A stretch of DNA of 17,104 nt, from UHGV virus genome UHGV-0120250; one strand, written 5' to 3'. This DNA comes from a virus. Of the stretch, positions 1,920 through 2,908 are shown piece after piece. The notes under the pieces are model-generated. The model was given only the letters and a program-made list of their open reading frames with translations. It had not been told where the DNA came from and did no database searches. The translations under genes and the position numbers were made by a program. Every line of letters begins with the position of its first letter. Position 1 is the first letter of the stretch.

Positions 1920-2303
1920 TCAGAATGGGATGGAATCGTCGTATACAGGAGTGTTCTGCTGGTTACTACTTTGCTGCTGCGGGCCATTTCCTGAAGCTGC
2001 AAATCCAATCTTTGCATTCAGTAATTCAAGAGTGATTGATTGACCATTTTGCCCCTGATAAATATCAACCCTGATGTTTTCTCCGGTAATTTCAACAATG
2101 CCACCTTCAACAAGAACACTACGGTAGTAATCCGCTTGCGCTCCCGGCTTGGCAAATACAACGGCGCTGTAGTTTGTCCATTCTTTCTTTTTTGTCTGGC
2201 GATCGTAATACTGAACTCCAGCACGGATGTTGAATCCGATATTTTCCCCGGCCTGAAACTCTCTTGCGGGCTTGTTTAGTCTTACAGTAATCGAATGTGC
2301 CAT
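1920..2303 (-). CDS. phage single-stranded DNA-binding (SSB-like, OB-fold) protein, 127 aa
   Basis: C-terminus ends ...PVYDDSIPF, matching the acidic SSB tip (DDDIPF in E. coli SSB); Gly/Gln-rich linker before the tip; start overlaps the erf stop (TAATG). Confidence 0.7.
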   Translation of the reverse strand: MAHSITVRLNKPAREFQAGENIGFNIRAGVQYYDRQTKKKEWTNYSAVVFAKPGAQADYYRSVLVEGGIVEITGENIRVDIYQGQNGQSITLELLNAKIGFAASGNGPQQQSSNQQNTPVYDDSIPF

Positions 2304-2908
2304 TAAGCGGCCGCCCCTTCTAATTCGTCTCGTCTGATGTTGTAAACGTCCTGCGCTTTTTGCTGCTCCGGTGTGCCTTCGAGCATCTTCCAGGCTTTGG
2401 CGAACGCCTGTTTAAGCTCTTCCACGGTGTTTTTCTGCAATGCTGCATCAGTGAATGCTTTTAGAACCTGTTCAGGTGTAGGTGATGGTTTTGATTGCTT
2501 TGCTGCTGCGTTCTGCTGATGTTTATGCTCGTCTGTATCTGCATCTTTCGCATCATCAATGCCGAACAAACCATTGAGGCAATACTTGCGTGCATAAGAG
2601 CTTGTAGCTCCCGTAACTTGTGCAGAATCCATTCCTTTCTTGCTTTCTTCCTCTCGTGCAAGAGCGGTTGCCGTATGGCTGTTTTCGCCATCGGTAATAG
2701 TTGCCGTGGCTTTCACGTAATACCGATCACCAATCAACACAACTTCATCGCTGATTGATAAAAACAGACCGTTCAGTAACGGCTTAACACCTTCAAGAAT
2801 GTCTTCGCAGCTTCTGTATTTATATTTACCGAATGAGTTGTACTGATTCTTTGGTGCGTTCAGATTCTCCTGAATAGCTGCCAGTCTTGCGTAAAATTCT
2901 TTGCTCAT
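2303..2908 (-). CDS. erf: ERF-family single-strand annealing recombinase (P22 Erf-like)
   Basis: Protein MSKEFYARLAAIQENLNAPKN... about 200 aa, recognised from recall as ERF-like; the track start at 2938 is a TTG, and the first ATG is at 2908. Sits where lambda carries bet/exo. Confidence 0.8.
   Translation of the reverse strand: MSKEFYARLAAIQENLNAPKNQYNSFGKYKYRSCEDILEGVKPLLNGLFLSISDEVVLIGDRYYVKATATITDGENSHTATALAREEESKKGMDSAQVTGATSSYARKYCLNGLFGIDDAKDADTDEHKHQQNAAAKQSKPSPTPEQVLKAFTDAALQKNTVEELKQAFAKAWKMLEGTPEQQKAQDVYNIRRDELEGAAA

What the first reader, a model, noticed from the sequence alone, without database searches (positions are those of the whole stretch)
1920..2908. Erf annealase plus SSB-like protein replace the lambda Red recombination genes
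In the position of exo-bet-gam the phage carries a coupled pair: an ERF-family annealase and a short OB-fold protein ending in the SSB acidic tip (DDSIPF). That tip is the known docking motif for SSB-interacting proteins, so the phage protein may recruit or compete for host SSB partners. No exonuclease partner is evident nearby.
Basis: partly seen in the sequence, partly recalled or inferred. Interest (0 to 1): 0.35.

Follow-up and report, generated by a model that had tools for sequence, protein, structure and literature searches.

The report
Known Erf–SSB–Abc2 phage recombination module
This is the ordinary recombination gene block of HK97/HK022-like lambdoid phages: an Erf strand-annealing protein, a small divergent single-strand-DNA-binding protein carrying the bacterial SSB tail, and next door Abc2, which makes the host RecBCD enzyme serve as the "missing" nuclease.

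Summary
On the minus strand, erf (2908..2303, Pfam ERF 2e-44, 75% identical to P22 Erf) overlaps by one base (TAATG) a 127-aa gene (2303..1920) ending in DDSIPF.

No Pfam, NCBIfam or PDB sequence model recognises the 127-aa protein as an SSB. Other evidence does:
- The AlphaFold model matches only bacterial SSB/PriB folds.
- hhalign aligns it to E. coli SSB, placing aromatic residues at all four DNA-stacking positions.
- Its relatives share the SSB layout: conserved core, variable Q/P-rich linker, D-D-x-I-P-F end.

It binds RecC and co-opts RecBCD, which explains the absent exonuclease.

The block is 97-98% identical to phages HK106 and HK97, and is present in about 10% of complete E. coli genomes. 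A 2025 paper already classed HK97 gp40 as "SSB-1b". So the finding is already known.

- Erf's C-terminal 55 residues form a confidently predicted three-helix domain. The same domain ends RecT and Sak4-type annealases.
- Among Erf-linked relatives, this domain and the SSB tip are present or absent together, though in few lineages.
- The small gene upstream of erf also ends in -PF.

I infer that the SSB tail docks on the Erf domain. This is not shown.

The parts
2303..2908 (-). erf: Erf/Rad52-like single-strand annealing protein, 201 aa
   Evidence: Pfam PF04404 2.1e-44; PHROG 155 1.2e-57; 75% identical to P22 Erf; 99% to HK97 Erf.
2312..2476 (-). Erf C-terminal domain (aa 145-199), predicted three-helix bundle. 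It is a separate mosaic segment and the candidate partner-docking domain.
   Evidence: AF2 pLDDT 93.4, helices at fragment residues 4-17, 21-34 and 40-58. DNA identity to P22 falls from about 80% to about 40% at about 2450. Homologous domains end Pfam-verified ERF, RecT and AAA_24/Sak4 proteins. No significant PDB fold match.
1995..2303 (-). OB-fold core (aa 1-103) of the SSB-like protein (HK97 gp40 / 'SSB-1b' type)
   Evidence: AF2 core pLDDT above 90, strands plus one helix at 55-63. All top Foldseek PDB hits are bacterial SSB/PriB, E 3e-5, TM 0.45-0.55. hhalign to E. coli SSB: 88.6% probability, E 2.6e-6, with Y32, W42, F50 and Y82 aligned to W40, W54, F60 and W88. PHROG 44 1.5e-26. No Pfam hit.
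1941..1994 (-). Short Q/N/S/G-rich disordered linker (aa 104-121) of the SSB-like protein
   Evidence: pLDDT below 50 for residues 107-122. In relatives of 123-215 aa this segment varies in length and sequence while the core and tip are kept.
1923..1940 (-). C-terminal tip DDSIPF (E. coli SSB: DDDIPF); stop codon at 1920-1922
   Evidence: Translation. 82 of 108 full-length cluster representatives of the family end in acidic residues followed by PF. Chance probability about 4e-6.
1603..1896 (-). abc2: anti-RecBCD protein 2, 97 aa. It supplies the module's nuclease by co-opting host RecBCD.
   Evidence: Pfam PF11043 6.1e-64 over the full length; 95-98% nucleotide identity to P22 abc2; function from PMC9836394.
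2919..3089 (-). 56-aa protein of the Gp33/HkaM family, directly upstream of erf in the position of P22 arf; ends ...YFLGPCPF
   Evidence: PHROG 1723 9e-36. 82% identical to the ORF directly upstream of erf in HK75 and HK446, which I take to be the Gp33 reported as a trigger of P2 OLD. Local jackhmmer links it to HK620 HkaM; all members end in -PF.
3010..3183 (-). 57-aa ORF overlapping the 56-aa gene in another frame. Its N-terminus (SDEEFI) resembles P22 Arf. In HK97 it is fused to the 56-aa family as gp42.1.
   Evidence: PHROG 2123 5.5e-41; translations compared. Whether it is expressed is unknown.

Best explanation
This is the HK97/HK022-type lambdoid recombination module, the 'HK75 functional type': anti-RecBCD + SSB + annealase, with no nuclease.

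Gene order on the minus strand is: small Gp33/HkaM-like protein, then Erf, then a divergent phage SSB (SSB-1b, HK97 gp40 type), then Abc2.

Proposed mechanism:
1. Abc2 binds the RecC subunit, so host RecBCD resects phage DNA ends without responding to Chi. This gives ssDNA and stands in for a phage exonuclease. It is shown for P22 Abc2 and inferred here from near-identity.
2. The 127-aa protein coats that ssDNA through an SSB-type OB fold. This is inferred from the fold and from conserved stacking aromatics.
3. Its flexible tail presents DDSIPF. This recruits Erf to SSB-covered ssDNA, most likely through Erf's C-terminal three-helix domain. This step is inferred by analogy and from co-occurrence. 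The same tail could also engage host SSB partners.
4. The Erf N-terminal ring domain anneals the strand to complementary ssDNA. This is shown for P22 Erf, which is 75% identical.

My probability that the protein is a working SSB serving Erf recombination is about 0.75. My probability that the tip binds the Erf C-terminal domain is about 0.4.
For: Family and fold:
- ERF and Abc2 Pfam hits lie far above their cut-offs.
- The SSB-like fold has all top PDB hits among SSB/PriB.
- hhalign to E. coli SSB gives 88.6% probability and aligns aromatic residues to all four DNA-stacking positions. These positions are invariant or always aromatic in 30 relatives.
- The family keeps the core, variable linker and acidic -PF tip layout.
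- dN/dS is 0.05-0.23, and the gene is translationally coupled to erf.

The SSB-1b family sits beside annealases in unrelated phages:
- Erf + Abc2 in enteric phages.
- A Sak4-like AAA_24 protein in a Leminorella prophage.
- RecT + exonuclease in Vibrio phages.

Erf C-terminal domain and SSB:
- The segment replaced relative to P22 is exactly the Erf C-terminal domain plus the downstream gene.
- Phage Oslo Erf is a P22-type N-terminal domain joined to an HK97-type C-terminal domain, followed by SSB-1b.
- 46 of 46 phage records with enteric SSB-1b carry this C-terminal domain type.
- A Salmonella phage with the same domain type has a canonical SSB (...DFDDDIPF) in that position instead.
- Two tipless SSB-1b lineages follow ERF proteins that lack the last helix of the domain.

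Precedents from papers:
- The HK620 SSB tail NDYPPF is needed to stimulate Sak4 (PMC5928155).
- The Red-beta C-terminal three-helix bundle binds the last nine residues of SSB (PMC6393309).
- Abc2 model (PMC9836394).
- gp40 classed as SSB-1b (PMC12315714).
Against: - No curated SSB sequence model accepts the protein. Foldseek TM-scores are only 0.45-0.55.
- No ssDNA binding, oligomeric state or interaction was or could be tested here.
- The deposited HK97 sequence has a 1-nt insertion that replaces the tip with DDSNPILI. HF4s and mEp234 carry broken copies. So neither the tip nor the gene can be essential for plaque formation in the laboratory.
- P22 manages with a homologous but diverged Erf C-terminal domain and no phage SSB. 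RecT proteins with the same domain have no phage SSB beside them. So the ligand of the domain could be host SSB, an exonuclease or something else.
- The link between the domain and the downstream gene could reflect mere adjacency.
- The co-loss of domain and tip rests on two lineages.
Confidence: 0.7

Rival explanations
1. Decoy or hub reading. The main job of the phage protein is to use the host-like DDSIPF tail to recruit host SSB-interacting proteins, or to titrate them. This would protect phage ssDNA or redirect host repair, rather than serve Erf directly. Host SSB partners such as ExoI, RecQ, RecO, PriA and the Pol III chi subunit are named from my own knowledge.
For: The tip differs from E. 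coli SSB's DDDIPF at one position. It is conserved across variable linkers. SSB tails are general docking sites (PMC5928155; PMC11611040). This reading is not exclusive of the best explanation.
Against: The gene travels with annealase genes of three families, not with other functions. Where Erf lacks the complete C-terminal domain, the SSB lacks the tip, although the host presumably still has its SSB partners. The only tested analogue, HK620, acts through its cognate annealase.
Confidence: 0.2
2. Replication SSB. The protein serves the phage's own replication (O-like initiator and primase/helicase at 8357-11205) and merely lies in the early-left operon.
For: The window encodes its own primase/helicase. 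SSBs are needed at replication forks (established knowledge).
Against: The gene is overlapped with erf and is exchanged together with the Erf C-terminal segment. The same erf-ssb-abc2 block occurs with different replication modules: HK106 has P/DnaB-type genes, this window a primase/helicase. Homologues always sit beside annealases.
Confidence: 0.07
3. Abc1 analogue. Because it occupies the slot of P22 abc1 between erf and abc2, the protein modulates RecBCD with Abc2 rather than binding ssDNA.
For: Identical position to P22 abc1, with the same one-base overlap with erf.
Against: No sequence similarity to Abc1. Abc1 has no OB-fold signature or acidic tip, whereas this protein has an SSB fold with conserved DNA-stacking residues. 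HK620 'Abc1' in the same slot proved to be an SSB.
Confidence: 0.03

Closest known systems
HK97 / HK022 / HK106 Rec module (gp42 - Erf - gp40 'SSB-1b' - Abc2); the 'HK75 functional type' of PMC12315714
   Same: Same genes in the same order. Nucleotide identity over 1500-3500 is 98.1% (HK106), 97.4% (HK97) and 95.5% (HK022). The SSB-like protein is 93.7% identical to HK97 gp40. The paper already infers an SSB fold for gp40 from AlphaFold 3 and lists 27 of 325 lambdoid phages with anti-RecBCD + SSB + annealase and no nuclease.
   Different: Nothing of substance. One detail: this copy has an intact DDSIPF end, whereas the deposited HK97 sequence reads DDSNPILI because of one extra A.
Phage P22 recombination system (Arf - Erf - Abc1 - Abc2)
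   Same: Erf is 75% identical overall, much higher in the N-terminal domain than in the C-terminal domain. abc2 is 95-98% identical in DNA. The operon position is the same, and neither has a phage nuclease.
   Different: Abc1 is replaced by the unrelated SSB-like gene. The Erf C-terminal domain is a diverged variant, about 40% identical. Arf is replaced by a Gp33/HkaM-family protein.
Phage HK620 module (HkaM - Sak4 - SSB-HK620 - Abc2), Hutinet et al. 2018, PMC5928155
   Same: Same four-slot layout: small protein, annealase, SSB with a -PF acidic tail, Abc2. The small protein is a distant homologue of the window's 56-aa ORF. It gives experimental proof that a module SSB stimulates its annealase through its last six residues.
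   Different: The annealase is a RecA-like Sak4, not Erf. HK620 SSB ('SSB-2') shows no detectable homology to this protein (hhalign probability 0.4%). HK620 Sak4 (226 aa) lacks the Erf-type C-terminal domain.
Lambda Red-beta C-terminal domain and its binding of the E. coli SSB tail (PMC6393309)
   Same: An annealase with an N-terminal DNA-binding domain plus a small C-terminal three-helix bundle. In Red-beta this bundle binds the exonuclease and the last nine residues of SSB.
   Different: No sequence or significant fold match between the Erf C-terminal domain model and any PDB entry. No exonuclease partner here. Binding is untested.
E. coli SSB (PF00436 family)
   Same: OB fold, aromatic residues at the four stacking positions, a disordered linker and a D-D-x-I-P-F end.
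   Different: Below every curated sequence threshold. 127 aa against 178 aa, with a linker of about 18 residues against about 55. Tetramer formation is unknown.

Membership tests
ERF superfamily (Pfam PF04404) | Match to the family model above the gathering score | tested here: met
   151.6 bits against a 25-bit cut-off, residues 5-143.
ERF superfamily (Pfam PF04404) | Close homology to the characterised P22 Erf | tested here: met
   75% identity over the full length, E 6e-111.
ERF superfamily (Pfam PF04404) | Ring oligomers and ssDNA annealing activity | not testable with these tools
   Biochemical property; known for P22 Erf only.
Bacterial SSB family (Pfam PF00436 / TIGR00621) | Match to a curated sequence model above its cut-off | tested here: not met
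   No Pfam hit at E<=0.1. TIGR00621 scores 13.2 bits against 53.95. PDB phmmer and profile searches find no SSB.
Bacterial SSB family (Pfam PF00436 / TIGR00621) | SSB-type OB fold | tested here: met
   AF2 core pLDDT above 90. All 50 listed Foldseek PDB hits are bacterial or mitochondrial SSB, or PriB; best E 3e-5, TM 0.45-0.55. hhalign probability 88.6%.
Bacterial SSB family (Pfam PF00436 / TIGR00621) | Aromatic ssDNA-stacking residues (E. coli W40, W54, F60, W88; residue roles from established knowledge) | tested here: met
   Y32, W42, F50 and Y82 align to them. F50 is invariant, Y32 and W42 are kept in at least 90%, and position 82 is always Y or F in 30 relatives.
Bacterial SSB family (Pfam PF00436 / TIGR00621) | Disordered linker followed by an acidic tip ending in -PF | tested here: met
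   pLDDT below 50 for residues 107-122. DDSIPF end. 82 of 108 family representatives keep an acidic -PF end despite linkers of very different length.
Bacterial SSB family (Pfam PF00436 / TIGR00621) | Homotetramer and high-affinity ssDNA binding | not testable with these tools
   Only single-chain prediction was available; no biochemistry.
SSB-1b (HK97 gp40 type, PMC12315714) / PHROG 44 | Sequence identity to HK97 gp40; match to the PHROG SSB family | tested here: met
   93.7% identity to HK97 gp40; PHROG 44 E 1.5e-26.
Abc2 anti-RecBCD (Pfam PF11043) | Full-length match above the cut-off | tested here: met
   212.7 bits against 25, residues 1-97 of 97.
Lambda Red (Exo-Bet-Gam) | Presence of Exo, Bet and Gam homologues | tested here: not met
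   None of the ten ORFs between 50 and 4101 matches these families in Pfam or PHROGs.
HK620 SSB-2 (HkaK) | Detectable homology to HkaK | tested here: not met
   hhalign probability 0.4%.
P22 Abc1 | Sequence similarity to Abc1 | tested here: not met
   No BLASTP alignment at E<=100.
Red-beta-type C-terminal SSB-binding three-helix bundle | [quoted passage not shown] | tested here: inconclusive
   Three helices are predicted with pLDDT 93.4. But no PDB match reaches E<=0.001 and 6M9K is not among the top 50. Binding is not testable.

The most novel reading that the evidence does not exclude
The roughly 55-residue three-helix domain at the end of Erf may be a portable receptor for SSB tails, shuffled among three unrelated annealase families (Erf, RecT, Sak4-like). 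Module-encoded SSBs would keep a host-like -IPF tail to feed this receptor, so that tail and receptor are gained and lost together. In addition, the small Gp33/HkaM-family protein upstream of the annealase, which also always ends in -PF, could be a tail mimic that competes for SSB-tail pockets. That might relate to its reported triggering of the P2 OLD defence.
Probability: 0.25. Interest if true: 0.55.

Novelty: already known. Interest (0 to 1): 0.25.

Why it matters
As stated, the finding matters little. The gene block has been in GenBank since the HK97 and HK022 genomes. It is carried by roughly one in ten complete E. coli genomes. Its SSB-like member was classified in 2025.

Two practical points remain:
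- NCBI's PGAP pipeline still labels the SSB-like gene 'hypothetical protein', and no curated sequence model captures it. A family model would improve annotation of hundreds of prophages.
- If the Erf C-terminal domain is the receptor for the SSB tail, it would give a simple rule for pairing annealases with SSBs in recombineering. It would also explain a domain of Erf that, from my memory of Poteete's and Murphy's work on P22 Erf in the 1980s, is needed in vivo but not for DNA binding.

Tried and rejected
Searches that did not recover what they were meant to:
- Pfam, NCBIfam and PDB sequence searches, single sequence and profile, for an SSB domain in the 127-aa protein: nothing significant.
- Homology of the 127-aa protein to P22 Abc1, which holds the same slot: none.
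- Homology to HK620 SSB (HkaK): none.
- HK620 Sak4 against the Leminorella Sak4-like protein: only the Walker A motif matches.
[quoted passage not shown] The structural analogy is therefore not claimed.

Searches with poor yield:
- Word-indexed protein search with the 61-aa Erf C-terminal segment returned only fragments of near-identical Erf proteins.
- The exhaustive phmmer search gave only 18 hits, because the query is short for so large a library. The spread of the domain across annealase families therefore rests on tblastn of phage records plus Pfam checks.
- The search for related loci with Erf returned 80 near-identical loci, useless for covariation. A second scan seeded with a divergent SSB-1b alignment gave some diversity.
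- No supplementary files were held for PMC12315714.

Also considered: the module's small upstream protein as the ligand of the Erf C-terminal domain. It co-occurs with Erf and Sak4 proteins that carry the domain. But phage Oslo has P22 Arf with the HK97-type domain, so the link is not strict.

Full report
**What is there**

The finding covers two minus-strand genes.

The first, 2908..2303, encodes a 201-aa protein starting MSKEFYARL.
- It matches Pfam ERF (PF04404) at 2.1e-44, far above the gathering score.
- It matches PHROG 155 'Erf-like ssDNA annealing protein' at 1.2e-57.
- It is 75% identical to the characterised Erf of phage P22.

The second, 2303..1920, encodes 127 aa.
- Its ATG shares one base with the erf stop codon (TAATG), so the two are translationally coupled.
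- It ends PVYDDSIPF.
- From the window's own composition, an acidic-x-[IVLP]-P-F end has a probability of about 4e-6 per ORF.
- Only two of the window's 129 ORFs of 40 aa or more end in PF, and they are the two that flank erf.

**Is the 127-aa protein an SSB?**

Curated sequence models say nothing.
- No Pfam family at E<=0.1.
- NCBIfam ssb models score 13 bits against cut-offs of 54 and 246.
- PDB sequence searches with the protein or with a 30-sequence profile find nothing.
- Only PHROG 44, a remote-homology cluster annotated SSB, matches, at 1.5e-26.

Four independent lines nevertheless support an SSB.

1. *Fold.* An AlphaFold2 model built on 30 relatives has pLDDT above 90 over residues 1-103, with a strand-rich core and one helix at 55-63, followed by a disordered tail. 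All 50 listed Foldseek PDB hits are bacterial or mitochondrial SSBs, or PriB. The best E is 3e-5, with modest TM-scores of 0.45-0.55.
2. *DNA-contact residues.* hhalign of the family alignment against E. coli SSB gives 88.6% probability and E 2.6e-6. It places Y32, W42, F50 and Y82 on W40, W54, F60 and W88. The DNA-stacking role of those four residues is established knowledge. In the family these positions are invariant or always aromatic.
3. *Layout.* Relatives of 123-215 aa keep the roughly 100-aa core, have Q/P/G-rich linkers of very different length, and mostly end in D-D-x-I/P-P-F. 82 of 108 full-length cluster representatives end this way.
4. *Selection.* dN/dS is 0.05 against phage Oslo and 0.23 against HK97.

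I therefore treat it as a divergent member of the SSB fold family. It works like an SSB on the available evidence, but it fails the sequence-model membership test.

The next gene downstream, 1896..1603, is Abc2. It matches PF11043 at 6e-64 over its full length and is 95-98% identical in DNA to P22 abc2.

Abc2 binds RecC and alters RecBCD. Phages that encode it characteristically have no exonuclease of their own. The working model is that modified RecBCD produces the ssDNA and hands it to Erf (PMC9836394). The absent exonuclease is thus explained by a known mechanism.

Upstream of erf lie:
- a 56-aa ORF (2919..3089);
- an overlapping 57-aa ORF (3010..3183);
- kil and cIII;
- then N, sieB, a BstA homologue, cI, cII and the replication genes.

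So the block does occupy the slot of lambda exo-bet-gam.

**It is a known module**

Identity and prevalence:
- The 2-kb region is 98.1% identical to HK106, 97.4% to HK97 and 95.5% to HK022. 42 phage records cover at least 80% of it.
- In HK97 the genes are gp42/42.1, erf, gene 40 and abc2.
- The erf-ssb-abc2 block is at least 80% covered in 556 of 5,426 complete E. coli genomes, where PGAP names the middle gene 'hypothetical protein'.

Prior descriptions:
- A 2025 survey of 325 lambdoid phages states that HK97 gp40 has a predicted structure similar to bacterial SSBs and names it SSB-1b. It lists 27 phages with the functional type anti-RecBCD + SSB + annealase without a nuclease (PMC12315714).
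- A 2026 preprint cloned the equivalent HK75 locus (Gp33, Erf, Gp31, Abc2).

P22 has the unrelated Abc1 in this slot. HK620 has a different, experimentally proven SSB there.

**How it most likely works**

The closest experiment is HK620. Its module SSB stimulates the Sak4 annealase in vivo and in vitro, and this needs the last six residues, NDYPPF. For lambda, the Red-beta C-terminal three-helix bundle binds the last nine residues of E. coli SSB.

I therefore looked at the Erf C-terminus.

*The domain is a separate mosaic segment.*
- Against P22, DNA identity is about 80% from 2908 to about 2480. It falls to about 40% from about 2450 through the whole SSB-like gene, then returns to 95-98% in abc2.
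- So the exchanged segment is the Erf C-terminal domain plus the downstream gene.
- Phage Oslo carries a natural chimera: P22-type Arf, a P22-type Erf N-terminal domain and linker, an HK97-type C-terminal domain, then SSB-1b.

*The domain type goes with a phage SSB.*
- All 46 phage records with enteric SSB-1b have this C-terminal domain type.
- Of the six records with the domain type but no full-length SSB-1b match, three are mEp234, which has a truncated remnant of the gene.
- One is a record that ends inside erf.
- One, Salmonella phage ABTNLsp11242, has a canonical 153-aa SSB ending DFDDDIPF in that position.
- The sixth, Salmonella phage S9-5, I did not inspect.

*The domain is structured and portable.*
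- It folds as three helices with pLDDT 93.4.
- Homologous domains, 39-52% identical, end proteins verified by Pfam as ERF, RecT (phiEt88, BUCT554) and AAA_24/Sak4-like (Erwinia phage vB_EhrS_59, and a Leminorella prophage).
- The Leminorella protein is itself overlapped by an SSB-1b homologue.

*The domain and the tip vary together among Erf-linked loci.*
- In 99 distinct SSB-1b sequences from the fetched loci, several diverged Erf lineages combine a complete domain with a tipped SSB.
- Two lineages of tipless SSB-1b (ending NFNQPQR and YNNNRG) follow ERF proteins of 172 and 187 aa that lack the last conserved helix.
- Among Erf-linked loci, no lineage with a tipped SSB lacked the domain.

*Limits.*
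- This pattern fits a tail-to-domain docking step, but it is few events.
- Adjacency alone could explain the linkage.
- RecT proteins with the same domain have no phage SSB next to them.
- Vibrio-phage RecT-Exo-SSB-1b modules have tips without this domain.
- The domain model has no significant PDB match.

I put the docking step at about 0.4.

**Evidence that the tip or gene is dispensable in the laboratory**

The deposited HK97 sequence has one extra A that changes the end to DDSNPILI. HF4s has a frameshifted copy. mEp234 has a truncated one. A few IMG/VR copies are damaged.

**Verdict**

The feature is a well-sampled, already described module, so interest is low.

The most novel reading not excluded is that the Erf-type C-terminal domain is a shuffled SSB-tail receptor, and that the -PF-ended small protein upstream belongs to the same tail-docking system.

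Noticed in passing
window 2919-3089 (-): The 56-aa ORF directly upstream of erf, in the position of P22 arf, is 82% identical to the ORF directly upstream of erf in HK75 and HK446. I take this to be the 'Gp33' reported in a 2026 preprint as sufficient to trigger the P2 OLD defence. A local jackhmmer search links it to HK620 HkaM. Every member found ends in -PF (CPF, APF, LPF, QPF), like an SSB tail. It also precedes Sak4-type annealases.
   Followed up: partly
window 3010-3183 (-), overlapping 2919-3089: A 57-aa ORF in another frame has an N-terminus (WSDEEFI) resembling P22 Arf (FSDEEFI). In HK97 the two reading frames are fused into one 83-aa protein, gp42.1. So this short stretch is itself mosaic or frameshift-prone.
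   Followed up: partly
L001 (HK97) 2916-2925, equivalent to window 1920-1935: The deposited HK97 genome has one extra A (TCCAATCCC instead of TCCATCCCA). As a result gp40 ends DDSNPILI (129 aa) instead of DDSIPF. This is either a real lesion in the laboratory phage or a sequencing error from 2000.
   Followed up: partly
L100 3455-4513; L102 2453-3503 (metagenomic phage contigs): SSB-1b homologues without the acidic -PF tip sit right after short ERF proteins (172 and 187 aa) that lack the last helix of the Erf C-terminal domain. L100 also has a PF10108 (DNA_pol_B_exo2) exonuclease gene upstream of ERF.
   Followed up: partly
L085 3138-4417 (Leminorella prophage); L093 1787-2650 (Erwinia phage vB_EhrS_59); L094, L095 (RecT of phiEt88, BUCT554): The Erf-type C-terminal domain of about 55 aa (consensus ...LKxFTxxA...ELKxxFxxAWKxLxG...KAKDVYxIRKxELE) is appended to Sak4-like AAA_24 and RecT annealases. 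No Pfam family covers it.
   Followed up: partly
window 5745-6650 (-): A 301-aa homologue of the BstA abortive-infection protein (PHROG 6287, 1.8e-132) lies between N and the cI repressor.
   Followed up: no
window 11265-11699 (+) and 11692-12294 (+): A NinB/Orf recombination mediator is followed by an HNH endonuclease gene. This is a second, separate recombination function in the same window.
   Followed up: no
window 1-17104: No phage record covers more than 52% of the window (best: Sf101, vB_EcoP-720R6, HK106). It is a typical lambdoid mosaic that combines the HK97-type Rec module with a primase/helicase replication module.
   Followed up: no
L002 (HF4s) 1908-2303; L096 (mEp234) 1653-1847; L062, L081: Several phages and prophages carry frameshifted or truncated copies of the SSB-like gene while keeping erf intact. 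In HF4s the N-terminal remnant is the piece annotated 'ssb protein'.
   Followed up: partly
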